DNA of 64,000 nucleotides from NCBI RefSeq assembly GCF_965641715.1, contig NZ_OZ282453.1. One strand, written 5' to 3'. The first letter of the stretch is position 1. Every line of letters starts with the position of its first letter. Source of the stretch: Escherichia coli (GTDB lineage: Bacteria; Pseudomonadota; Gammaproteobacteria; Enterobacterales; Enterobacteriaceae). The translations under genes and the position numbers were made by a program. This document shows, one piece after another, positions 9,639 through 57,200 of this stretch. The notes beneath the pieces are model-generated. The model saw only the letters and a list, made by a program, of their open reading frames with translations. It was not told the DNA's origin and ran no database searches.

Positions 9639-9661
9639 AGTGTTGCCTTTTTGTTATCAAT

Positions 9662-9690
9662 AAAAAAGGCCCCCCGATTTGGGAGGCCTT
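9662..9690 (-). terminator. pheA attenuator terminator
   Basis: Minus strand reads aaggcctcccaaatcggggggcctttttt, between pheL and pheA. Confidence 0.8.
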
Positions 9691-9736
9691 ATTGTTCGTC
9701 TTCGCATTCTGTTTCATACGACGAAACGCCTCCCAT

Positions 9737-9784
9737 TCAGGGGAAGGTAAAAAAGAATGCGAAGAAAAACGGTGTGTGTTTCAT
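9737..9784 (-). CDS. pheL: pheA leader peptide PheL (15 aa, below the ORF-track cutoff)
   Basis: Minus strand atgaaacacacaccgtttttcttcgcattcttttttaccttcccctga = [15 protein letters not shown] with 7 Phe codons. Confidence 0.9.
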   Translation of the reverse strand: [15 protein letters not shown]

Positions 9785-9840
9785 GTTTGTTTCCTTAAGT
9801 GACTTTAGTACAGTACCCGTACTGTTTTCACGCTGTCAAC
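9785..9840 (-). promoter_or_regulatory. pheL-pheA promoter region (-35 TTGACA at 9834..9839)
   Basis: Minus strand gTTGACAgcgtgaaaacagtacgggTACTGTACTAAAgtc upstream of pheL; the -10 choice is ambiguous. Confidence 0.6.
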
Positions 9841-9865
9841 AAAAAACGCGCCCGAAGGTGCGTTG
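9839..9865. repeat. attL core
   Basis: acaaaaaacgcgcccgaaggTgcgttg; 26/27 identical to 45803..45829. Confidence 0.85.
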
Positions 9866-9951: not shown

Positions 9952-10941
9952 TTATGTGGATGAAATGTGGATGCCTCCTTTTAACGGATTAAGTGAAATT
10001 GCATCCTGGAGGAAATCAGGAGCGAGGTGCGCATAGGTCATAGTTTGCTGGATCGTGGCGTGCCCCATAATTCGCTGGAGCGTAAGTATATTTCCTCCAT
10101 TAATCATAAAGTGAGCTGCAAAGGTATGGCGTAGAACATGTACTGCCTGCCCTTTTGGTAGATCAGGTTTAACACTGCGAAGCACCTTGCGATATTCCTC
10201 ATAATTGACGTCAAACAAAAGGCCGGATTTCTTTGTTTTGATCTCGCTAACAACTTCATCAGAGACAGGAATAATTCGAACTTTTCCGTTTTTAGTTTTG
10301 TTAAACGTCACGCGGTTATTGATGATGTGTTCCGCGCGCAGATTTTTCGCTTCTCCCCATCTCGCACCAGTACTGAGACAAAGTAGCGTAATCCGCCGGG
10401 CATCACCGCTTACTGCATCCAGTAATTTGGCAATTTCTTCCGTGGTGAGATACGTCATTTCGGGTGATTTTCGTTTCAAAGAGGGGAGGGCGCGGAGCGG
10501 ATTTTCTCCGTGAAATTCCCCGGCATTTGCCAGGAGTGTAAACATTCCTCCGAGATCCGACTCATCACGCCGAACAGTAGACTCTTTTACTCCCAAAGAT
10601 AAACGGGAGCTTCGATAAGCGGCCATGAAACGAGCATTAATCTGGCTAACCCTTGGATCATTCATTTCTTTGATGATTTTTTTCAACCTGGTTAGAACGC
10701 CGTTAGCATATGGCTTATTGCGTCCACCCAATTCCCACCATAACGGAAGCAGATCTGAGAGATGACGTTGCTCTGTTGGCTTTTCAAGCCATTCCTTATC
10801 GTGCATGTGGCTGAGAACATAACGCTCAAAGGCCACTGCATCTGCCTTTTTCTTAAAAATCCGCTGAATCCGACGTCCACTTCGGCCACGCGGTCTAACA
10901 TCCACTTTATACCGTCCACCATCGAGTGCTTTAATTGCCAT
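9952..10941 (-). CDS. int: Tyrosine recombinase / phage integrase
   Basis: C-terminal catalytic motifs (ARWGEA..., HVLRHTFAAHF, GHATIQQTMTYAHL); ATG 10941 has a ggaggg RBS, while the ORF-track start 10974 has none. Confidence 0.9.
   Translation of the reverse strand: MAIKALDGGRYKVDVRPRGRSGRRIQRIFKKKADAVAFERYVLSHMHDKEWLEKPTEQRHLSDLLPLWWELGGRNKPYANGVLTRLKKIIKEMNDPRVSQINARFMAAYRSSRLSLGVKESTVRRDESDLGGMFTLLANAGEFHGENPLRALPSLKRKSPEMTYLTTEEIAKLLDAVSGDARRITLLCLSTGARWGEAKNLRAEHIINNRVTFNKTKNGKVRIIPVSDEVVSEIKTKKSGLLFDVNYEEYRKVLRSVKPDLPKGQAVHVLRHTFAAHFMINGGNILTLQRIMGHATIQQTMTYAHLAPDFLQDAISLNPLKGGIHISST
9954..9973 (+). repeat. Candidate Int arm-type sites (2 x ATGTGGATG, 11-bp phasing)
   Basis: atgtggatg at 9954-9962 and 9965-9973; matching TGTGGA pair near attR (45743-45762). 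Confidence 0.45.
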
Positions 10942-11007
10942 TGGCAAGCCCTCCGGTGAAACGAGGAAAGACATTTCCAGTTTGTAAAACGTAAGAATAA
11001 TAAAGGG

Positions 11008-14049: not shown

Positions 14050-14141
14050 GAAACCAGAGCATGCACACACAAAAAAACCGCTTGCCATGCCGCAATCAGT
14101 CAGGTTACATTTTCGCTGCACCTCATAAAACGGGTGCCGGG

Positions 14142-14166
14142 TTTCGCAGCCTGCTGACAACCAAAG
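14142..14166 (+). promoter_or_regulatory. Upstream target boxes a1 (tttcgcagc) and b1 (caaccaaag) for the c4-like RNA
   Basis: Complementary to 14287-14293 and 14272-14280 respectively. Confidence 0.5.
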
Positions 14167-14232
14167 CGCACAACCGCGCCAGCGGTTTTTTTGTGCGTAC
14201 TGTATTGCCACGTTTTTTTCGCGTCAGAATTA

Positions 14233-14314
14233 TGGCGGGGCGTACGGGGCCGACTTCGGTCGGGCCGGGTTCTTTGGTTGCCGGTACTGCGAACCCCGTA
14301 CGTCTCGCCACCCA
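14233..14314 (+). ncRNA. P1 c4-like antisense regulatory RNA (~80 nt)
   Basis: 16-17 bp terminal helix (14233-14249 / 14294-14310) followed by ACCCA; UUCG-tetraloop hairpin 14250-14263; second hairpin whose 12-nt loop carries b'; single-stranded a' 14287-14293. Confidence 0.55.
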
Positions 14315-14317
14315 CAG

Positions 14318-37526: not shown

Positions 37527-40334
37527 TCAATCTTTATCGTAAAAACTGCCACGCCCGGCACGGGCGCGCCGTTCCATTTCTGCCCTGACCATTTCACCGA
37601 CCAGTTTCGCCAGTTCGCGGGGATTCTGCGTAACAACGTTATGCAGATGAACATGAATTTCACCACCAAATCCGGAGGCAACAGGCTCCCGGTTACGGGA
37701 AGTTACAGGAACTGATGCCACTGGAGATCGTATGGCCTCCGCCACCGGGCGGGAGCTGGCCGCAACAACAGGGACCAGCGCCGGAGGCAGCGGAGCCGGG
37801 ACCACGGGGGTGATATTAATTGCGGGGGCAGGCTTACTGACCTGCGCAATCTTCCGCTCCTGCCACTCCCCACGAACAGCAAGTGCGCGGGGCAGGTTCT
37901 TAAAGACAATATCGCCGGGGCCAATGCGTTTTTTCGTCTCATCAACCAGCTTACCTGTGTTATCAGCAATTTTGCTGAGTCTGCGTAGCGTCCCGGTATT
38001 GCTGTCTGTGAGCGGTTTATTGTCTTTGGGGTTATCACCTCCGGTGCCATTGCCATTTTCCACAGGCTTCGGCGGATTGATTTTCGCCAGGTCCCCCTGA
38101 AGCAAGGCAACCTTGTCCTGAAGAATGGCCGCACGCTGTGCGTCTTCGATTTTCTTTCTCGCCCTTTCCGCTTCATCCGGAAGCACACCGAGTTTTTCAA
38201 GTATCCACGCCAGCGTATCCAGCAGCATTTTTGCAGGCGTCAGAACAAGCTGTAGCGCGCCACCAAGAACGTTACCGAATATCTCGCCAGCACTGGTACA
38301 TTTATCCAGCGTTTCCTTGCTGGACTCCATCGGTGACAGCAGCGATTTAAACCAGTTAAAGAGCTGAATAATCCCATCGCGCACGACATCAAAAACAGGA
38401 CCAAACCGTTCAAAGGTTTCGCGCAACGGAGCCAGCCGTTCCATAATTCCACTGAACACCCCGGCATAAAACGCCTTGATGGGTTCCCAGTATTTCCAGA
38501 TGAGAACCGCCGCAGCCACAAACGCGGCAACAATCAATCCGACCGGACTGAACAGCGCCCCGATAGCGCCACCCAGCAACGAGATGGAACCTGTTACCAT
38601 TCCCCATAGTGCTGGCAGCACCCTGACGACATTCATTGATCCGGTCAGGAGAGAAAAACCAAGACGTAACGTGGCCAGTTTCCCGTGAAGCACGCCAATA
38701 ACCAGCGACAACGAGCCAATCGTTGCAGTCATTGCCAGCAACGCACCGCCTGCTATCAGTAGCTGGCGCGTCAGTGCCGGATGGGCCTGCGCCAGCGCCG
38801 TCACCCTTGATACCACCCGCGTGAGCCACTGCGTGACAGAACGCAGCGGGCCGTCAATCAGATCTGCAATGCGGATGCGCAACCCTTCCCATGCACTGCC
38901 GAGTGATTTCAGATCGCCGTCAAGGTTGTTGGCCATAACCTTTGCTGTGCGTTCAGCCTCACCGCGCGCGCCTTCAAGTTCTTTTCTCAGTTTAGGTAAG
39001 GAACCGTCACCCGCTGCATCAACGAGCGCCATAAACGATGTGAAAGCCTCTTCTCCGGCAATGTCCTTAAAGAACGATACCCGGTCAACTTCCCCGTATT
39101 TGCGGGTGGCTTTATAAAGGTCGGCCAGCACATCCTCCATCGGGCGCATTTTGCCGTTCGCGTCAGAGACTGCCACACCAAGCTCTTTCAGCGCCTCTGC
39201 TGCCGCCTTTGGCGGTGATGCAAGACGAGCCAGGCTGGCACGCATTGCCGTCCCGGCATCACTTCCCCTGATACCCATATTCGCCAGCACGCCCGCCATC
39301 GCTGCGGCCTGCTCCAGCGATATTCCCAGCTTGCCCGCCACCGGACCTGCATATTTCATGGTTTCGCCCAGTGCGCGAAGGTCAGTGTTGGTACGGGTAA
39401 ACGCTGCGGTGAGCGTGTCACCGACCCGGTCCATCTGGTCAGCAGAAAGGCCGAACTGCGTCAGGATATTTGAGCCAATATCTGCCGTCTCGCCGAGATC
39501 CATACCGCCAGCCGTTGCCATGCTCAGCACTCCGGGGAGCGCAGCCTGAATGGCCTGCGGTGTGAAGCCAGCCATTGCAAGAAATGCCTGCCCACTGGCG
39601 GCATCGCCTGCGGTGAACTGCGTTTCAGAGCCAAGTTTTAACGCCTGCTCACGCAGCGCCTTAAACTGCGGGCTGTTCTGGTCGATTCGCGTCAGCGCCT
39701 GAACGCGGGACATCTCTTTGCCGAACCCGATCGCGGGCTGCAAAAAACGCCCGGCAGCATAGCCGCCCGCCGCTGCCGCACCAATTGCCAGCGCACCACC
39801 TGTTTTCAGTTTTCCCGCGGTTTCCTGCGCGCGCGAATACCGCTCACGCGCCCGCGTTACACGCGCAAGCGCCTGCCGTTCGCGTTCAAGCTGGTTGTTG
39901 TACTGTTCGGTGCGTCTGATGGCCTGCTGGATGGTGTTATCGCTGCCTGTCAGGGAAATGCCGTGGCGTTTCAGCTCTCCGCCAAGTTCCCGCATTTTCT
40001 GAATTTCCCGTGTGCGCGATTCATTCAGGCGTTCAAGCCGGGTGCTTAACTGCTGCATCAGCTTTTGTTGTTTTTCGCTGAGCACTGTACCCGTGCGTTG
40101 TAACTGATTAAGAGCGTTAAGCTGGCGTCGTGCTTTCAATATGCCAGCATCCGCTTTACTGACAGCGTCACGGGCGCGCTCAAATGAACGCGCCTGACGC
40201 TCGAGATTTTTGATCGCCCCCTGCGTTCGCTGGATGGAGTCACCAAACTGCCCCATCAGGCGGCGGGCGTTTTCGGCAGGCCGGGTCAGCCTGTCAACGG
40301 CGCTGAAAGCGACCCGGATATCAAGAGTCTTCAT
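37527..40334 (-). CDS. T: Tail tape-measure protein (P2 gpT-like)
   Basis: ~935 aa, coiled-coil plus TM-rich middle; ATG 40334 follows gggaa. Confidence 0.85.
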   Translation of the reverse strand: MKTLDIRVAFSAVDRLTRPAENARRLMGQFGDSIQRTQGAIKNLERQARSFERARDAVSKADAGILKARRQLNALNQLQRTGTVLSEKQQKLMQQLSTRLERLNESRTREIQKMRELGGELKRHGISLTGSDNTIQQAIRRTEQYNNQLERERQALARVTRARERYSRAQETAGKLKTGGALAIGAAAAGGYAAGRFLQPAIGFGKEMSRVQALTRIDQNSPQFKALREQALKLGSETQFTAGDAASGQAFLAMAGFTPQAIQAALPGVLSMATAGGMDLGETADIGSNILTQFGLSADQMDRVGDTLTAAFTRTNTDLRALGETMKYAGPVAGKLGISLEQAAAMAGVLANMGIRGSDAGTAMRASLARLASPPKAAAEALKELGVAVSDANGKMRPMEDVLADLYKATRKYGEVDRVSFFKDIAGEEAFTSFMALVDAAGDGSLPKLRKELEGARGEAERTAKVMANNLDGDLKSLGSAWEGLRIRIADLIDGPLRSVTQWLTRVVSRVTALAQAHPALTRQLLIAGGALLAMTATIGSLSLVIGVLHGKLATLRLGFSLLTGSMNVVRVLPALWGMVTGSISLLGGAIGALFSPVGLIVAAFVAAAVLIWKYWEPIKAFYAGVFSGIMERLAPLRETFERFGPVFDVVRDGIIQLFNWFKSLLSPMESSKETLDKCTSAGEIFGNVLGGALQLVLTPAKMLLDTLAWILEKLGVLPDEAERARKKIEDAQRAAILQDKVALLQGDLAKINPPKPVENGNGTGGDNPKDNKPLTDSNTGTLRRLSKIADNTGKLVDETKKRIGPGDIVFKNLPRALAVRGEWQERKIAQVSKPAPAINITPVVPAPLPPALVPVVAASSRPVAEAIRSPVASVPVTSRNREPVASGFGGEIHVHLHNVVTQNPRELAKLVGEMVRAEMERRARAGRGSFYDKD

Positions 40335-40850
40335 TGTCTGTATTCCCGCTGCGAAGTGCCGCCCGCTCACGCCAGCTAACCACTTCGCCGGGAGTCATCA
40401 TGAAGATTTCGGCGGGCGACCAGTTAAAAATGGCGGCAATATCCGCCACAAAGTCTTCTATGTGCTCAAAGCACACAACCGTGATCAGGCTTCCGTCGCC
40501 TGTTCGTTCTTCCCGCCAGAGTCCGCACCGCTCAAAAAATTTACGGCAACCACACATAACTGAATAAAGTCACGGGATGCCATTTTTTTGATCGTCACTT
40601 CATCCAGTCGCGGTGATGTCACGCGTGACAGCAGCGTAAACATGGATTCCGCTTTCAGATTCAGCACATCAGACAGCGACAAATCTCGCAGAGATCCAGC
40701 CTGCTCAATAGCCCCGGTGATCTCCACATACGTGATTTTTTCGCCGCCTCGCTCAATTGGTTGGGTAAGTTTTACGCCACGCTCACTGGTTTCTTTCACA
40801 GTGTCAGTAACTACCGTGTTTTCGGTATCGATGTTTTTCGTCTCTTTCAT
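40321..40850 (-). CDS. gpE+E' -1 frameshift fusion chaperone
   Basis: T TTT TTG heptamer (complement of 40533..40539) in the E zero frame; the -1 frame is open to 40321 (ORF 40321..40557). Confidence 0.7.
40485..40850 (-). CDS. E: Tail assembly chaperone (P2 gpE-like)
   Basis: 121-aa ORF between FII and T; contains the slippery TTTTTTG. Confidence 0.8.
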   Translation of the reverse strand: MKETKNIDTENTVVTDTVKETSERGVKLTQPIERGGEKITYVEITGAIEQAGSLRDLSLSDVLNLKAESMFTLLSRVTSPRLDEVTIKKMASRDFIQLCVVAVNFLSGADSGGKNEQATEA

Positions 40851-43910: not shown

Positions 43911-44171
43911 ATGTTCCGTTGTCCGCTTTGTGGCGCATCTGCCCGTATCCGCACCAGTCGTCCGGAAAATGATTCAAACACCGTGCGGCAAAAGTATTAC
44001 CAGTGTAACAATCTGGAATGCGGCGTATGCTTCTCAACACTGGAAGCTTTCCATAAATTCACATCGAAACACGCCTCCGGCGTTCACTCTTCAGAAGGTA
44101 TCCCGTGGCATGAGCTGCCAGCTTCACACAGGGGAAACAATCAGATGAGTTTGCCTTTATCTCAGAATTAA
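43911..44171 (+). CDS. ogr: Ogr/Delta-type zinc-finger late transcription activator
   Basis: MFRCPLCGASARIRTSR...YYQCNNLECGVCF versus P2 Ogr MFHCPLCQHAAHARTSR...YHQCQNVNCSATF. Confidence 0.88.
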   Translation: MFRCPLCGASARIRTSRPENDSNTVRQKYYQCNNLECGVCFSTLEAFHKFTSKHASGVHSSEGIPWHELPASHRGNNQMSLPLSQN

Positions 44172-44259
44172 CAGGCAGAATTGCCGGAGTAACAAAAAAG
44201 CGATAGATTACGCGCGGGTGCCTTTCGGCTGATGGTCGGAGGGAATACCCGAAGGCCAG

Positions 44260-44496
44260 ATGTGGAAAGGCCCCGGAAAACATTTCTGTTTAACCGAGGC
44301 CCTAACACTTCTTACCTTCGCAAGTAGAAGGTTAGCGCCTCTCCTCTCAGGAGACAAGCGTTATGACGCAAATTCCGTTAAAAACCCTGTTACTTTGCAT
44401 AACTGCGGTAGCGATAATCTGGATCCTCCACACATCACCGTGCGAGTTACGATTCAGGTTTGCTGGCACGGAAATTGCGGCATTCTTACTATGTAA
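44260..44496 (+). CDS. mok-like overlapping reading frame of the hok-type locus
   Basis: ATG 44260 follows gaagg; overlaps the whole toxin ORF in another frame, as mok does in R1 hok/sok. Confidence 0.4.
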   Translation: MWKGPGKHFCLTEALTLLTFASRRLAPLLSGDKRYDANSVKNPVTLHNCGSDNLDPPHITVRVTIQVCWHGNCGILTM

Positions 44497-44503
44497 TAAG
44501 TAA
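44363..44503 (+). CDS. Hok/Gef-family type I toxin, 46 aa (not in the ORF track)
   Basis: MTQIPLKTLLLCITAVAIIWILHTSPCELRFRFAGTEIAAFLLCNK: TM helix plus the CE(L/I)R...E(V/I)AAF signature shared with HokA/HokB/Hok-R1; the SD aggaga is sequestered in tctcct-ctc-aggaga. Confidence 0.75.
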   Translation: MTQIPLKTLLLCITAVAIIWILHTSPCELRFRFAGTEIAAFLLCNK

Positions 44504-44512
44504 GATAACCGC

Positions 44513-44534
44513 GACGGGGGAGTAATCCCCCGTC
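44513..44534 (+). other. GC-rich hairpin at the 3' end of the hok-like mRNA
   Basis: gacggggg agtaat cccccgtc. Confidence 0.5.
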
Positions 44535-44590
44535 AATCGGTTGCTAAGGTTGGTCGAAACGGCATCCTATCTCACAGACATGAACAACAA

Positions 44591-44623
44591 ACCCGCAGCG
44601 TAAAAACTGCGGGTTTTCTTTTT
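44591..44623 (+). terminator. Intrinsic terminator
   Basis: acccgcag / ctgcgggt stem followed by tttctttttg. Confidence 0.75.
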
Positions 44624-44664
44624 GCTACCCTCACAAATGAGGGCACCATACATAAGCAATAGGC

Positions 44665-44715: not shown

Positions 44716-44752
44716 CATATCGGCAGCAGTAACCACACAAGAGGTGCCGCAA

Positions 44753-44950
44753 ATGACGCAAAATGTACGATGCAAAAATTGCAACAAACTACTTGCCCGC
44801 GCCTCATTTCACTACATTGAAATAAAATGTCCGCGCTGCAAAACACTTAACCAGATAACGAGAGCCATCGAGCACCCCACACACATGAGGAGTTATGACC
44901 GTGGGGATCGCAATCCAGCACCAACCAGCACATACGCCAGAACACACTAA
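44753..44950 (+). CDS. com: Mu Com-like zinc-finger translational regulator
   Basis: MTQNVRCKNCNKLLARASFHYIEIKCPRCKTLNQITRAIEHPT versus Mu Com MKSIRCKNCNKLLFKADSFDHIEIRCPRCKRHIIMLNACEHPT; aagaggtg RBS. Confidence 0.85.
   Translation: MTQNVRCKNCNKLLARASFHYIEIKCPRCKTLNQITRAIEHPTHMRSYDRGDRNPAPTSTYARTH
44875..44906 (+). promoter_or_regulatory. Stem-loop enclosing the SD and ATG of the methyltransferase gene
   Basis: CCCCAC (44875-44880) / GTGGGG (44901-44906) flank gaggag and ATG 44895. Confidence 0.5.
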
Positions 44951-45701
44951 GGTTTATCAGACTGACAATGTCACGCTCTGTTGTGGGAATGCACTGGAAA
45001 TATTGCCGCTGATTGAGCCAGAAAGCATTGATGCCTTAATCACTGACCCGCCTTACAGTTCGGGTGCGACACACAAGGCCGGACGCACCAATCAGGGCAG
45101 CCATGCAAAATATCTGAACGGCGAGAACCTTCACCGCTTTGATGGGTTCGCGGGTGAAAACATGGACGCCCGTTCGTGGGCTTACTGGACACAATTATGG
45201 ATGGCACAGGCACACCGCGCAGTCAGGCCAGGCGGTTATGCCATGGTATTTACTGACTGGCGACAACTACCAGCTTTAACCGATGCGTTTCAGGCCAGTG
45301 GCTTTACATGGCGCGGCATCATTGCGTGGAACAAGGGGAGGGGGTCACGAACACCACATACCGGGTATTTCCGGCATCAGTGCGAATACATCGTCTGGGG
45401 CAGCAAAGGCCATTTAGATAAATCGCCTTCGGGGCCGTTCGACGGCTGCATGACGTACCCGGTTATCCCGTCAAAGAAAATGCACCCGACCGGAAAACCA
45501 GAAGAACTAATGGCGGAACTGGTCAGGACTGTGAATAGTGGCGGAACAGTCCTTGATCCTTTTATGGGGTCAGGGACAACGGGTGTGGCTGCACTGAAAG
45601 CAGGGCGAAAATTTATTGGTATAGAAACCAGTGATCATTATTTTGAGGTAGCAGCGCAGCGGCTTCGGGGGACTATTACCACAACCATTTCGGCTACATA
45701 A
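44895..45701 (+). CDS. Beta-class N6-adenine/N4-cytosine DNA methyltransferase
   Basis: Motif IV DPPY (res 51-54) lies N-terminal to motif I VLDPFMGSGTTG; the start lies 56 nt inside the com-like ORF. Confidence 0.85.
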   Translation: MTVGIAIQHQPAHTPEHTKVYQTDNVTLCCGNALEILPLIEPESIDALITDPPYSSGATHKAGRTNQGSHAKYLNGENLHRFDGFAGENMDARSWAYWTQLWMAQAHRAVRPGGYAMVFTDWRQLPALTDAFQASGFTWRGIIAWNKGRGSRTPHTGYFRHQCEYIVWGSKGHLDKSPSGPFDGCMTYPVIPSKKMHPTGKPEELMAELVRTVNSGGTVLDPFMGSGTTGVAALKAGRKFIGIETSDHYFEVAAQRLRGTITTTISAT

Positions 45702-45802: not shown

Positions 45803-45829
45803 ACAAAAAACGCGCCCGAAGGCGCGTTG
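45803..45829. repeat. attR core, which is also the functional raiA intrinsic terminator
   Basis: acaaaaaacgcgcccgaaggCgcgttg; minus strand reads caacgcgccttcgggcgcgttttttgt. Confidence 0.85.
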
Positions 45830-45851: not shown

Positions 45852-46247
<396 letters not shown>

Positions 46248-49044: not shown

Positions 49045-49106
49045 CCTAAAGAATCAAGACGATCCGGTACGCGTGATTTTCTTTTCACATTAATCTGGTC
49101 AATAAC

Positions 49107-49135
49107 CTTGAATAATTGAGGGATGACCTCATTTA
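49107..49135 (+). promoter_or_regulatory. sigma32 heat-shock promoter of clpB
   Basis: CTTGAAT - 13 nt - CCTCATTTA fits CTTGAAA / CCCCATnT. Confidence 0.65.
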
Positions 49136-49173
49136 ATCTCCAGTAGCAACTTTGATCCGTTATGGGAGGAGTT

Positions 49174-51747
49174 ATGCGTCTGGATCGTCTTACTAATAAA
49201 TTCCAGCTTGCTCTTGCCGATGCCCAATCACTTGCACTCGGGCACGACAACCAATTTATCGAACCACTTCATTTAATGAGCGCCCTGCTGAATCAGGAAG
49301 GGGGTTCGGTTAGTCCTTTATTAACATCCGCTGGCATAAATGCTGGCCAGTTGCGCACAGATATCAATCAGGCATTAAATCGTTTACCGCAGGTTGAAGG
49401 TACTGGTGGTGATGTCCAGCCATCACAGGATCTGGTGCGCGTTCTGAATCTTTGCGACAAGCTGGCGCAAAAACGTGGTGATAACTTTATCTCGTCAGAA
49501 CTGTTCGTTCTGGCGGCACTTGAGTCTCGCGGCACGCTGGCCGACATCCTGAAAGCAGCAGGGGCGACCACCGCCAACATTACTCAAGCGATTGAACAAA
49601 TGCGTGGAGGTGAAAGCGTGAACGATCAAGGTGCTGAAGACCAACGTCAGGCTTTGAAAAAATATACCATCGACCTTACCGAACGAGCCGAACAGGGCAA
49701 ACTCGATCCGGTGATTGGTCGTGATGAAGAAATTCGCCGTACCATTCAGGTGCTGCAACGTCGTACTAAAAATAACCCGGTACTGATTGGTGAACCCGGC
49801 GTCGGTAAAACTGCCATCGTTGAAGGTCTGGCGCAGCGTATTATCAACGGCGAAGTGCCGGAAGGGTTGAAAGGCCGCCGGGTACTGGCGCTGGATATGG
49901 GCGCGCTGGTGGCTGGGGCGAAATATCGCGGTGAGTTTGAAGAACGTTTAAAAGGCGTGCTTAACGATCTTGCCAAACAGGAAGGCAACGTCATCCTGTT
50001 TATCGACGAATTACATACCATGGTCGGCGCGGGTAAAGCCGATGGCGCAATGGACGCCGGAAACATGCTGAAACCGGCGCTGGCGCGTGGTGAATTGCAC
50101 TGCGTAGGTGCCACGACGCTTGACGAATATCGCCAGTACATCGAAAAAGATGCTGCGCTGGAACGTCGTTTCCAGAAAGTGTTTGTTGCCGAGCCTTCTG
50201 TTGAAGATACCATTGCGATTCTGCGTGGCCTGAAAGAACGTTACGAATTGCACCACCATGTGCAAATTACTGACCCGGCAATTGTTGCAGCGGCGACGTT
50301 GTCTCATCGCTATATTGCTGACCGTCAGCTGCCGGATAAAGCCATCGACCTGATCGATGAAGCAGCATCCAGCATTCGTATGCAGATTGACTCAAAACCA
50401 GAAGAACTCGACCGACTCGATCGCCGTATCATCCAGCTCAAACTGGAACAACAGGCGTTAATGAAAGAGTCTGATGAAGCCAGTAAAAAACGTCTGGATA
50501 TGCTCAACGAAGAACTGAGCGACAAAGAACGTCAGTACTCCGAGTTAGAAGAAGAGTGGAAAGCAGAGAAAGCATCGCTTTCTGGTACGCAGACCATTAA
50601 AGCGGAACTGGAACAGGCGAAAATCGCTATTGAACAGGCTCGCCGTGTGGGTGACCTGGCGCGGATGTCTGAACTGCAATACGGCAAAATCCCGGAACTG
50701 GAAAAGCAACTGGAAGCCGCAACGCAGCTCGAAGGCAAAACTATGCGTCTGTTGCGTAATAAAGTGACCGACGCCGAAATTGCTGAAGTGCTGGCGCGTT
50801 GGACGGGGATTCCGGTTTCTCGCATGATGGAAAGCGAGCGCGAAAAACTGCTGCGTATGGAGCAAGAACTGCACCATCGCGTAATTGGTCAGAACGAAGC
50901 GGTTGATGCGGTATCTAACGCTATTCGTCGTAGCCGTGCGGGGCTGGCGGATCCAAATCGCCCGATTGGTTCATTCCTGTTCCTCGGCCCAACTGGTGTG
51001 GGGAAAACAGAGCTTTGTAAGGCGCTGGCGAACTTTATGTTTGATAGCGACGAGGCGATGGTCCGTATCGATATGTCCGAGTTTATGGAGAAACACTCGG
51101 TGTCTCGTCTGGTTGGTGCGCCTCCGGGATATGTTGGTTATGAAGAAGGTGGCTACCTGACCGAAGCTGTGCGTCGTCGTCCGTATTCCGTCATCCTGCT
51201 GGATGAAGTGGAAAAAGCGCATCCGGATGTCTTCAACATTCTGTTGCAGGTACTGGATGATGGGCGTCTGACTGACGGGCAGGGGAGAACGGTCGACTTC
51301 CGTAATACGGTTGTCATTATGACCTCTAACCTCGGTTCCGATTTGATTCAGGAACGCTTCGGTGAACTGGATTATGCGCATATGAAAGAGCTGGTGCTCG
51401 GTGTGGTAAGCCATAACTTCCGTCCGGAGTTCATTAACCGTATCGATGAAGTGGTGGTCTTCCATCCGCTGGGCGAACAGCACATTGCCTCGATTGCGCA
51501 GATTCAGTTGAAACGTCTGTACAAACGTCTGGAAGAACGTGGTTATGAAATCCACATTTCTGACGAGGCGCTGAAACTGCTGAGCGAGAACGGTTACGAT
51601 CCGGTCTATGGTGCACGTCCTTTGAAACGTGCTATCCAGCAGCAGATCGAAAACCCGTTGGCACAGCAAATACTGTCTGGTGAATTGGTTCCGGGTAAAG
51701 TTATTCGCCTGGAAGTTAATGAAGACCGGATTGTCGCCGTCCAGTAA
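49174..51747 (+). CDS. clpB: Disaggregase chaperone ClpB
   Basis: [18 protein letters not shown]..., two AAA+ modules ([16 protein letters not shown]); ATG 49174 follows gggagga. Confidence 0.95.
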
Positions 51748-52188: not shown

Positions 52189-53730
<1,542 letters not shown>

Positions 53731-53815
53731 CCTTAAAGAAGCGTACTTTGCAGTGCTCACACAGATTGTCTGATAGAAAGTGAAAAGCAAGGCGTCTTGC
53801 GAAGCAGACTGATAC

Positions 53816-53891
53816 GTCCCCTTCGTCTAGAGGCCCAGGACACCGCCCTTTCACGGCGGTAACAGGGGTTCGAATCCCCTAGGGGACGCCA
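53816..53891 (+). tRNA. gltW: tRNA-Glu (UUC) in the 16S-23S spacer
   Basis: gtccccttcgtctagaggcccagg...cccTTTCACgg...ggttcgaatcccctaggggacgcca; 76 nt. Confidence 0.95.
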
Positions 53892-54084
53892 CTTGCTGGT
53901 TTGTGAGTGAAAGTCGCCGACCTTAATATCTCAAAACTCATCTTCGGGTGATGTTTGAGATATTTGCTCTTTAAAAATCTGGATCAAGCTGAAAATTGAA
54001 ACACTGAACAACGAAAGTTGTTCGTGAGTCTCTCAAATTTTCGCAACACGATGATGGATCGCAAGAAACATCTTCGGGTTGTGA

Positions 54085-56988
<2,904 letters not shown>

Positions 56989-57080
56989 ACAACGCCGAAG
57001 CTGTTTTGGCGGATGAGAGAAGATTTTCAGCCTGATACAGATTAAATCAGAACGCAGAAGCGGTCTGATAAAACAGAATT

Positions 57081-57200
57081 TGCCTGGCGGCCGTAGCGCG
57101 GTGGTCCCACCTGACCCCATGCCGAACTCAGAAGTGAAACGCCGTAGCGCCGATGGTAGTGTGGGGTCTCCCCATGCGAGAGTAGGGAACTGCCAGGCAT
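57081..57200 (+). rRNA. rrfG: 5S rRNA
   Basis: tgcctggcggccgtagcgcggtgg ... gggaactgccaggcat; 120 nt. Confidence 0.97.

What the first reader, a model, noticed from the sequence alone, without database searches (positions are those of the whole stretch)
44200..44535. Unannotated hok/mok/sok-type type I toxin locus between ogr and the com-methylase operon
- A 46-codon ORF (44363-44503, below the ORF-track cutoff) encodes MTQIPLKTLLLCITAVAIIWILHTSPCELRFRFAGTEIAAFLLCNK.
- That is one TM helix followed by the Hok/Gef periplasmic signature. Compare HokB ...LYELRFRDGDKEVAALMAC and HokA ...SLCELHIKQESYELAAFLAC, both remembered.
- Its SD aggaga is locked in a tctcct-ctc-aggaga hairpin.
- A 78-codon ORF (44260-44496, RBS gaagg) overlaps it out of frame exactly as mok overlaps hok.
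- A GC-rich 3' hairpin (44513-44534) could supply the fold-back element.
- On the minus strand, a TTGCGA -35-like hexamer (complement of 44318-44323) sits where the R1 Sok promoter -35 (TTGCGC) lies relative to the toxin SD. I could not find a convincing -10.

Hok loci are plasmid killers, and hok/sok of R1 also excludes T4.
Basis: partly seen in the sequence, partly recalled or inferred. Interest (0 to 1): 0.66.

Follow-up and report, generated by a model that had tools for sequence, protein, structure and literature searches.

The report
Known hok/sok toxin–antitoxin module in prophage
This is a genuine but already annotated and catalogued Hok/Sok "host-killing" toxin–antisense-RNA module carried as cargo by a P2-like prophage of E. 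coli, so it is ordinary, except that its phage-borne subfamily seems to lack the usual helper reading frame, mok.

Summary
The 46-codon ORF (44363-44503) is real and passes Pfam HOK_GEF (33.8 bits, cutoff 22). The DNA is E. coli. RefSeq already annotates the same peptide (WP_032140709.1) as "Hok/Gef family protein", and a 2025/26 Hok catalogue lists it as sequence 1818. About 23% of complete E. coli genomes carry a relative, and P2-like phages (P88, Chuche) have it in the same place after ogr.

The RNA anatomy of a hok/sok locus is present and conserved in 51 relatives:
- a hok promoter;
- 5'/3' end pairing (tac 44216-44233 with fbi 44548-44567);
- a refolding truncated form;
- a covarying 3' stem-loop;
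- an antisense Sok whose core stem matches K-12 SokB/SokC.

- The 78-codon "mok" ORF is not conserved. It is open in 9 of 49 relatives that keep its ATG, which is the chance rate.
- The 3' hairpin is the protective stem of the processed mRNA, not the fold-back element.
- TTGCGA is the Sok start region. The promoter is TTGTCT-17-TAACCT.

Verdict: a known kind of element, already known, low interest. The only mildly novel lead is Sok control without mok in this clade.

The parts
44181..44209 (+). Predicted hok promoter: -35 TTGCCG (44181-44186), 17-nt spacer, -10 TAGATT (44204-44209). The -35 starts 10 nt after the ogr stop codon.
   Evidence: Read from the sequence. The -10 lies 6 nt upstream of GGGTGC, as in K-12 hokB (TAGGAT) and hokC (TATAAT) and in all phage relatives. 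With 8 of 12 consensus matches it falls below the generic scan threshold. Inferred, not shown.
44216..44624 (+). hok mRNA. The predicted 5' end is GGGUGCC at about 44216. The conserved module ends at about 44575. An intrinsic terminator lies at 44589-44616, with a T-run to about 44624.
   Evidence: The Rfam RF01794 hit starts at 44216. Homology to other phages breaks at about 44576. The terminator was found. The fold of 44216-44578 has an MFE of -149.3 kcal/mol and a z-score of -7.8.
44216..44233 (+). tac element: the 5' end that pairs with fbi in the full-length mRNA and with the ucb-like box in the processed mRNA.
   Evidence: The MFE has 18 bp with 44549-44567. This helix is 88.3% paired across the alignment. 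End pairing appears in 51 of 51 individual folds. In the truncated RNA the element refolds onto 44264-44274.
44264..44274 (+). ucb-like box GGAAAGGCCCC. It pairs with tac once the 3' end is removed, and pairs downstream (around 44293-44312) in the full-length form.
   Evidence: Folds of 44216-44540 and of the nascent 85 nt. It matches the first helix of the Rfam consensus.
44260..44321 (-). Predicted Sok antisense RNA, about 61 nt. It has a 5' tail GCGAAGGUAAGAAGUGUUAG, a stem-loop GGCCUCGG...CCGGGGCC and a tail UUUCC.
   Evidence: The core stem and tail match the annotated K-12 SokB and SokC. The fold has a z-score of -6.7. The overlying stem has 6 compensatory pairs. Its expression has not been shown.
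44329..44357 (-). Predicted Sok promoter: -35 TTGTCT (complement of 44352-44357), 17-nt spacer, -10 TAACCT (complement of 44329-44334), and +1 G at about 44321.
   Evidence: The geometry is the same as R1-type (TTGCGC-17-TATCCT) and sokB (TTGCCG-17-TAAGAT, then 7 nt to +1). The TTG of the -35 is kept in 50 of 51 relatives. The invariance of the -10 was partly imposed by my search pattern, but it was also invariant in all 9 BLAST-found sequences. The match to consensus is weak (7 of 12) and the generic scan did not find it.
44294..44340 (+). Sok-target hairpin of the processed mRNA (GAGGC 44295-44299 pairs with GCCUC 44336-44340). Its 5' arm and loop are complementary to the Sok 5' tail.
   Evidence: Truncated fold and the Rfam consensus alignment.
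44340..44354 (+). Anti-SD/SD hairpin: TCTCCT-CTC-AGGAGA.
   Evidence: In relatives only a shorter CUCC...GGAG pairing is kept.
44363..44503 (+). hok toxin gene, 46 aa: MTQIPLKTLLLCITAVAIIWILHTSPCELRFRFAGTEIAAFLLCNK.
   Evidence: Pfam HOK_GEF at 33.8 bits, above the cutoff of 22. PHROG 251, E 2.8e-13. RefSeq WP_032140709.1. dN/dS of 0.13-0.40 against 35 clade alleles. It is sequence 1818 in the Hok catalogue.
44513..44534 (+). 3' stem-loop GACGGGGGA-GUAA-UCCCCCGUC. It is the likely 3' end and exonuclease block of the processed, active mRNA.
   Evidence: 98.7% of cells paired and 5 pairs changed on both sides. Its position matches the R1 stem-loop whose mutation destabilises Tr-hok (PMC9841398).
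44548..44567 (+). fbi (fold-back inhibition) element GGUUGGUCGAAACGGCAUCC.
   Evidence: It pairs with 44216-44233. It is the last conserved block before homology to other phages ends.
44260..44496 (+). I judge it fortuitous and not part of the system.
   Evidence: The ORF from the homologous ATG runs for anything from 1 to 79 codons in relatives and passes the hok ATG in only 9 of 49. 21.8% of shuffled leaders stay open by chance. 28 of 51 relatives have no start codon at all reading into hok.

Best explanation

Proposed mechanism:
1. A weak constitutive promoter (44181-44209) makes a stable hok mRNA starting at about 44216.
2. The first 18 nt (tac) pair with 44548-44567 (fbi). This closes the molecule and keeps it both untranslatable and unavailable to Sok.
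3. Slow 3' trimming back to the stem-loop at 44513-44534 removes fbi.
4. The 5' end then switches to the ucb-like box at 44264-44274, and the Sok-target hairpin (44294-44340) forms.
5. In cells that keep the prophage and keep transcribing, a short-lived antisense Sok of about 61 nt (complement of 44260-44321, promoter TTGTCT-17-TAACCT) pairs with this region, and the duplex is destroyed, presumably by RNase III.
6. When Sok supply stops, processed mRNA accumulates. This could happen on loss of the element, on transcription shut-off by an infecting phage, or on prophage induction.
7. The 46-aa Hok is then made, inserts in the inner membrane and collapses the membrane potential.

What is shown and what is inferred:
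- Shown here: the protein family membership, the conserved RNA pairings, the homology of the Sok stem and promoter geometry, purifying selection on the ORF, and the prophage context.
- Inferred from the R1 and hokW paradigms: transcript ends, processing, RNase III cleavage, toxicity of this particular allele, and the biological role.
- Different from R1: no conserved mok frame. Hok is probably translated from its own SD (AGGAGA, 8 nt before the ATG) rather than by coupling to mok.
For: - Protein family: Pfam HOK_GEF above its cutoff and PHROG 251.
- Conserved residues: 6 of the 7 residues the Hok catalogue reports as conserved in more than 80% of Hok peptides are present (C12, T14, C27, E28 and E37 aligned to R1 C16, T18, C31, E32 and E41, plus M1).
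- RNA family: a full-length Rfam hok-leader match, E 4.6e-9.
- Fold: z-score -7.8, with 18-bp end pairing.
- End pairing: present in 51 of 51 relatives.
- Whole structure: 81.4% of cells paired against 37-43% when partners are slid, and covariation above all 500 shuffles.
- Refolding: the truncated form adopts the Rfam consensus.
- Sok: its stem and promoter geometry match annotated SokB/SokC and R1.
- Selection: dN/dS of 0.13-0.40.
- Synteny: the same module sits after ogr in phages P88, Chuche, P88_4B11, Shae_phiSM and 500465-2.
- Toxicity of relatives: two tested members (72_1621 and 72_1589, 46-50% identical) belong to the 42 of 45 Hok homologues found toxic.
- Precedent: hokW/sokW in a prophage is a working type I TA system (PMC8621323).
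Against: - No expression data exist for either RNA.
- Both predicted promoters match consensus weakly (7-8 of 12), and the generic scan missed them.
- The Rfam score of 47.4 is below the gathering score of 59, whereas R1-type, hokB and hokC score 87-118.
- The NCBIfam Hok models are far below their cutoffs (27.7 against 89, and 25.2 against 73).
- The tac/fbi helix varies almost only on one side (G-C to G-U). Its support is therefore conservation of pairing, not compensatory change.
- This allele has Pro where most Hok peptides have Leu30, and it was not itself tested for toxicity.
- Without mok, how Sok prevents translation is unexplained. Sok ends 28 nt upstream of the SD.
Confidence: 0.85

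Rival explanations
1. It is a canonical hok/mok/sok locus. The 78-codon ORF (44260-44496) is a true mok, and its translation through the strong SD hairpin is needed to translate hok, as in plasmid R1.
For: The ORF exists and is in the same relative frame as mokB. It has a GAAGG SD-like motif 4 nt upstream. This allele has the strongest anti-SD/SD hairpin of the clade, at 6 bp. In R1, mok translation is mandatory (PMC9841398).
Against: Its ATG is at -103, not the -57/-58 seen in R1-type, hokB and hokC. From the homologous ATG, the ORF length ranges from 1 to 79 codons, and only 9 of 49 relatives read past the hok ATG. That equals the 21.8% expected from shuffled leaders. In most relatives all three frames are closed between -50 and -14. 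The ATG lies inside the structurally constrained ucb box, which would explain why the ATG itself is conserved.
Confidence: 0.1
2. It is an inactive relic, like several K-12 hok loci. The sequence is recognisable but no longer kills.
For: The Rfam and NCBIfam scores are sub-threshold. Pro replaces the conserved Leu before the Cys-Glu motif. 3 of 45 tested Hok homologues were non-toxic.
Against: The ORF is intact, with an SD 8 nt from the ATG. All regulatory pairings are intact. dN/dS is well below 1. The identical allele is present in dozens of genomes and in 7 loci from the pattern scans of viral and genome contigs. Alanine substitution of conserved residues in R1 Hok did not abolish toxicity. 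No IS or rearrangement is present.
Confidence: 0.06
3. The module is the same, but its main role is for the phage rather than for addiction or defence. As shown for hokW/sokW, Hok made after induction weakens the membrane and speeds or increases phage release. Read-through from the late operon (D-ogr) could add to hok mRNA.
For: hokW/sokW doubles Sp5 release after mitomycin C (PMC8621323). The module has a fixed position directly after ogr in infectious phages. No terminator was found between the ogr stop codon and hok. The prophage here looks complete, with int and an intact tape-measure gene.
Against: There are no data for P2-like phages. The hokW effect is two-fold only. This reading is not exclusive of prophage stabilisation or of exclusion of other phages (the R1 hok/sok effect on T4, as quoted).
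Confidence: 0.25

Closest known systems
46-aa Hok clade of temperate coliphages (PHROG 251 'MokW-like host killing'; the P88-type and Stx-phage-type members form 'cluster 72' in the Hok catalogue, bioRxiv 10.1101/2025.08.07.668861), e.g. phages P88, Chuche, 1720a-02 and TL-2011c
   Same: Same peptide length and motifs (C12, W20, H23, C27-E, AAFL.C). Same leader, Sok region, 3' stem-loop and fbi. In P2-like phages, the same position directly after ogr. The window's exact peptide is catalogue sequence 1818 and RefSeq WP_032140709.1.
   Different: This allele's coding region is only 39-65% identical in amino acids to other clade members (55-73% in nucleotides), while the UTRs are 86-88% identical to those of the P2-like phage and Salmonella copies. 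It ends in LLCNK rather than LQCKQ. The allele itself has not been tested for toxicity.
hok/mok/sok (parB) of plasmid R1, and chromosomal hokB/sokB and hokC/sokC of E. coli K-12
   Same: Hok/Gef fold signature. tac/fbi end pairing. tac-ucb refolding after 3' trimming. A 3' protective stem-loop. A Sok of about 60 nt with the same core stem. The same promoter geometry on both strands.
   Different: About 35% identity over the 33-36-residue core, and 46 aa rather than 49-52 aa. There is no conserved mok, and no ATG at -57/-58. The Rfam score is 47 bits against 87-118 bits.
hokW/sokW of Stx2 prophage Sp5 (PMC8621323)
   Same: A prophage-borne hok/sok module. The paper's primer sequences, read by eye, suggest a similar 5' end (GGGTGC...) and a similar GGGGGAGTAATC-type 3' hairpin. 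This was not aligned or tested.
   Different: HokW is a 51-aa peptide whose primer-derived ends look HokC-like, so it belongs to a different peptide clade. It sits in a lambdoid phage, not after ogr in a P2-like phage. Its function was shown experimentally, and this one's was not.

Membership tests
Hok/Gef toxin family (Pfam PF01848) | Profile score at or above the curated gathering score | tested here: met
   33.8 bits against a cutoff of 22, E 2.5e-8, covering profile positions 7-42 of 42.
Hok/Gef toxin family (Pfam PF01848) | Small peptide with one N-terminal hydrophobic helix followed by the Cys-Glu-containing C-terminal segment, with the residues conserved in more than 80% of Hok peptides (M1, C16, T18, L30, C31, E32, E41 in R1 numbering) | tested here: met
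   Alignment to R1 Hok gives C12/C16, T14/T18, C27/C31, E28/E32 and E37/E41, plus M1. Only L30 differs (Pro26). C44 aligns with the C/Y48 position (list of conserved residues).
Hok/Gef toxin family (Pfam PF01848) | Kills or arrests cells when expressed, by damaging the membrane | not testable with these tools
   Relatives 72_1621 and 72_1589 (46-50% identical) were in a panel in which every homologue except three other named sequences was toxic. This allele (sequence 1818) was not in the panel.
NCBIfam 'type I toxin-antitoxin system Hok family toxin' (NF007279) and HokA equivalog (NF007290) | Score at or above the curated cutoff | tested here: not met
   25.2 bits against 73, and 27.7 bits against 89. 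I do not file it as HokA or under these narrower models.
hok/sok type I TA locus (R1 parB paradigm) | Long-range pairing of the mRNA 5' end (tac) with a 3' element (fbi) | tested here: met
   18 bp in the MFE. Present in 51 of 51 relatives' own folds, with a median duplex z-score of -4.4. 88.3% of cells paired. Variation is mostly one-sided, so the covariation evidence is weak.
hok/sok type I TA locus (R1 parB paradigm) | Alternative fold of the 3'-processed mRNA (tac-ucb stem and Sok-target hairpin), ending in a stable 3' stem-loop | tested here: met
   Predicted refolding of 44216-44540 matches the Rfam consensus. The 3' stem-loop is 98.7% paired with 5 compensatory pairs. The processing itself was not observed.
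hok/sok type I TA locus (R1 parB paradigm) | Cis-encoded antisense Sok RNA with its own promoter inside the hok leader | tested here: inconclusive
   The stem is homologous (GGCCUCGG...CCGGGGCC), and the -35/17/-10/+1 geometry equals that of sokB and R1. The promoter matches only 7 of 12 consensus positions, and there are no transcript data.
hok/sok type I TA locus (R1 parB paradigm) | mok leader reading frame overlapping the hok start and required for hok translation | tested here: not met
   No ATG at -57/-58. The ORF from -103 is open past the hok ATG in 9 of 49 relatives, against 21.8% by chance. 28 of 51 relatives have no start codon reading into hok. I therefore file it as hok/sok-type, not hok/mok/sok-type.
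Rfam RF01794 ('sok'; in fact the hok mRNA leader strand) | Covariance-model score at or above the gathering score of 59 | tested here: not met
   47.4 bits, E 4.6e-9, covering model positions 1-157 in full. The whole 46-aa clade scores 42-51 bits, while R1-type, hokB and hokC score 87-118 bits. It is homologous but is a divergent subfamily.

The most novel reading that the evidence does not exclude
The 46-aa Hok clade carried by temperate coliphages has dispensed with mok. Hok would then be translated directly from its own SD. Sok binds 28-90 nt upstream of that SD, so it would have to act without blocking a leader ORF. It could act purely by triggering decay of the processed mRNA, or by a structural or standby-site effect as in tisB/istR-1. 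That would be a second regulatory logic inside the best-studied type I TA family. The variable Sok-tail/target segment (44302-44327) might also set allele specificity between co-resident copies.
Probability: 0.4. Interest if true: 0.4.

Novelty: already known. Interest (0 to 1): 0.17.

Why it matters
As found, it matters little. It is one more copy of a widespread, annotated module, present in relatives in about 23% of complete E. coli genomes. It does explain the gap between ogr and the cargo operon, and it marks the inner edge of a variable cargo region in P2-like phages. If the absence of mok is real, this clade would be a natural test case for how Sok can silence hok without translational coupling. 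The authors of the Hok catalogue explicitly left that question open.

Tried and rejected
- The generic sigma-70 scan found neither the hok nor the Sok promoter. Both were placed by homology to R1, sokB and sokC instead.
- Column-wise covariation for tac/fbi gave only 1 pair changed on both sides. I therefore rely on per-sequence folding and say so.
- The genome contigs pattern scan gave only 7 loci. Two were chance matches (L016, L018). Three were in assemblies of unrelated taxa; of these, L014 and L017 carry phage-type hok sequence and look like contamination, and L013 was too short to examine. L014, L016, L018, L033, L104 and L112 were dropped from the structural alignment.
- In alignment A2 I entered L062 on the wrong strand. 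It was excluded from the Python counts, but it remains as 1 of 52 rows and slightly lowers the percentages there.
- I checked a short upstream ORF from the conserved ATG (44260) as an alternative leader peptide. Its length varies from 1 to 79 codons, so I rejected it.
- PADLOC has no model for the peptide.
- Steif and Meyer, 'The hok mRNA family', could not be retrieved. Whether mok-less hok loci have been described before therefore remains unchecked.
- The weak Rfam hits at 44494-44638 (Thr_leader, BSnc120, IsrM) are terminator look-alikes.
- No structure prediction or large protein-database search was run, because annotation and the catalogue already settle identity.

Full report
**Observation.** The 78-codon ORF at 44260-44496, the TCTCCT-CTC-AGGAGA hairpin at 44340-44354 and the GC-rich hairpin at 44513-44534 are also present. 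The peptide passes Pfam HOK_GEF (33.8 bits, gathering score 22, E 2.5e-8) and matches PHROG 251 (E 2.8e-13). It falls far below the curated cutoffs of the narrower NCBIfam Hok models and has no PADLOC model. Rfam RF01794 matches 44216-44374 on the + strand over the whole model, with E 4.6e-9. At 47.4 bits this is below the gathering score of 59.

**Source and prior annotation.** The 489 bases around the locus are 100% identical to E. coli UMNF18. There RefSeq annotates the gene as WP_032140709.1, 'Hok/Gef family protein', between 'ogr/Delta-like zinc finger' and 'Com family' plus 'DNA-methyltransferase', followed by raiA. Of 5426 complete E. coli genomes, 1256 hold a related stretch, 40 of them at 95% identity or more.
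- P2-like phages P88, Chuche, P88_4B11, Shae_phiSM and 500465-2 carry a copy 80-83% identical, directly after ogr. It is annotated 'MokW-like host killing'.
- Chuche has the full ogr-hok-com-methylase-integrase order.
- Lambdoid and Stx phages carry the same clade near lom or tail-fibre genes.
- A 2025/26 preprint catalogues 1264 Hok peptides, reports enrichment in prophages, and found 42 of 45 tested homologues toxic.
- The window's exact peptide is sequence 1818 in that preprint's alignment files. Two clade relatives (72_1621 and 72_1589) were in the tested panel and are not among the three non-toxic sequences.

**Prophage context.** A 20-bp direct repeat (ACAAAAAACGCGCCCGAAGG) lies at 9839 and 45803. 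It brackets about 36 kb between the pheL leader (9660-9785) and raiA. An integrase-sized ORF sits next to the left repeat, and the tape-measure ORF is intact. hok and the com-methylase operon are therefore cargo between ogr and the right att site.

**RNA anatomy.** I aligned the locus with 8 phage copies. I then added loci recovered by scanning viral and genome collections with an invariant block, giving 51 usable distinct sequences.
- Homology to phages with different cargo ends at about 44576, so the module is discrete.
- The RNA 44216-44578 folds with an MFE of -149.3 kcal/mol (z-score -7.8). Its first 18 nt pair with 44549-44567. This 5'/3' closure is the tac/fbi hallmark of hok mRNAs (PMC9841398).
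- The closure appears in the individual MFE of all 51 sequences, with a median duplex z-score of -4.4.
- On the alignment the whole structure is 81.4% paired, against 37-43% when partners are slid. Covariation is above all 500 shuffles. The structure was derived from one of the aligned sequences, which favours it against the slid controls.
- The tac/fbi helix is 88.3% paired but varies almost only on one side.
- The 3' stem-loop at 44513-44534 is 98.7% paired with 5 compensatory pairs.
- The stem over the Sok region is 90% paired with 4-6 compensatory pairs.
- Removing the 3' end (44216-44540) makes the 5' end switch to GGAAAGGCCCC (44264-44274). GAGGC/GCCUC then close a hairpin over 44294-44340, which is the Rfam consensus fold.

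The fold-back element is 44548-44567.

**Promoters and Sok.** On the minus strand the sequence reads TTGTCT, then 17 nt, then TAACCT, then 7 nt, then G. The hexamers are the complements of 44352-44357 and 44329-44334, and the G is at 44321.
- The R1-type locus has TTGCGC-17-TATCCT at the homologous place.
- K-12 sokB has TTGCCG-17-TAAGAT, followed by 7 nt and the annotated 5' end.
- The predicted RNA of about 61 nt has the core stem GGCCUCGG...CCGGGGCC followed by UUUCC. This is the same as in SokB and SokC. It folds with a z-score of -6.7.
That is why no -10 could be found next to it.
- The hok promoter is read as TTGCCG (44181-44186), 17 nt, TAGATT (44204-44209). The -10 is 6 nt before GGGTGC, exactly as in hokB and hokC.
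- Both promoters are weak matches to consensus, and the generic scan did not report them. They are inferences from homology.

**mok.** R1-type hok, hokB and hokC have an ATG at -57/-58 that reads through the hok start, and in R1 that translation is mandatory. Here the homologous position has no start codon.
- Across the 51 relatives, 28 have no canonical or near-cognate start reading into hok, and 5 have only near-cognate ones.
- From the homologous ATG, the ORF is 1 to 79 codons long and passes the hok ATG in 9 of 49.
- Shuffled leaders stay open 21.8% of the time.

The ORF behaves as an unconstrained frame. The ATG itself lies in the structurally constrained ucb box. By contrast the hok frame shows dN/dS of 0.13-0.40.

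**Calibration.** RF01794 scores 87-118 bits on R1-type, hokB and hokC, and 42-51 bits on every member of the 46-aa clade tested. The hits lie on the hok strand, opposite to the annotated sokB and sokC. The Rfam 'sok' model is therefore in fact the hok leader.

[quoted passage not shown] Its most likely mode of action is the R1 scheme:
- a closed stable mRNA;
- 3' processing and refolding;
- Sok pairing followed by decay;
- Hok synthesis once Sok is no longer made.

The one difference is that Hok is probably translated from its own SD rather than through mok. Its role in a P2-like prophage is not determined. Candidates are prophage retention, exclusion of phages that shut off host transcription, and help with lysis as for hokW/sokW. 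None of these could be tested here.

**Verdict.** This is a real feature that was correctly recognised in kind, but it is already annotated and catalogued. The apparent absence of mok in this clade is the only point that might interest a specialist. The catalogue authors state that they did not analyse mok.

Noticed in passing
window 9839-9858 and 45803-45822: A 20-bp direct repeat (ACAAAAAACGCGCCCGAAGG) brackets a P2-like prophage of about 36 kb inserted between the pheL leader (9660-9785) and raiA (45852-46193). A 340-aa integrase-sized ORF lies at 9952-10974, and the 947-aa tape-measure ORF (37527-40370) is intact. RefSeq marks the tape-measure gene as frameshifted in UMNF18.
   Followed up: partly
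window 44744-45701: A Mu Com-like zinc-ribbon ORF (Pfam Zn_ribbon_Com, 44.5 bits) overlaps the start of an N6/N4 DNA methyltransferase (PADLOC MTase_II, 3e-63). This is a com-controlled arrangement like com/mom, but with an ordinary methylase. The same pair follows hok in phage Chuche. Other P2-like phages have TagO-like or other cargo there, and the homology break is at about 44576, right after the hok fbi element.
   Followed up: partly
window 14118-14315: isrK (65.9 bits) and C4 antisense RNA (87.1 bits) are both above the Rfam gathering scores. They sit side by side in the early region of the prophage, which is a P1/P7-type antisense immunity element in a P2-like genome.
   Followed up: no
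window 44302-44327 and 44363-44503, compared with L002 and L005-L010: Mosaic divergence. The first ~90 nt of the leader are identical to P88, and the UTRs are 86-88% identical to the P2-like phage copies. The toxin coding region is only about 62% identical, and the Sok-tail/target segment also differs between alleles. Some genomes hold up to 4 copies. This could reflect allele-specific Sok recognition or cassette exchange.
   Followed up: partly
window 44171-44216: The predicted hok -35 starts 10 nt after the ogr stop codon, and no terminator was found between them. Late-operon read-through into hok is therefore possible.
   Followed up: no
L011 567-718 and L012 502-654 (K-12 hokB and hokC loci): Rfam RF01794, named 'sok antitoxin', matches the strand opposite to the annotated sokB and sokC genes. 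It models the hok mRNA leader, not Sok.
   Followed up: yes
L013, L014, L017 (genome-contig hits): The invariant hok-leader block occurs in assemblies labelled Xanthomonas pisi (857-bp contig), a Planococcaceae MAG and Vagococcus sp. WN89Y (226-kb contig). L014 and L017 align as phage-type hok loci; L013 was too short to examine. These are probably contamination or mislabelling rather than true hosts.
   Followed up: no
window 49055-49193 and 52189-57198: The RyfD sRNA and a complete rRNA operon (16S, a tRNA, 23S, 5S) lie downstream of the prophage. This is ordinary chromosomal content.
   Followed up: no
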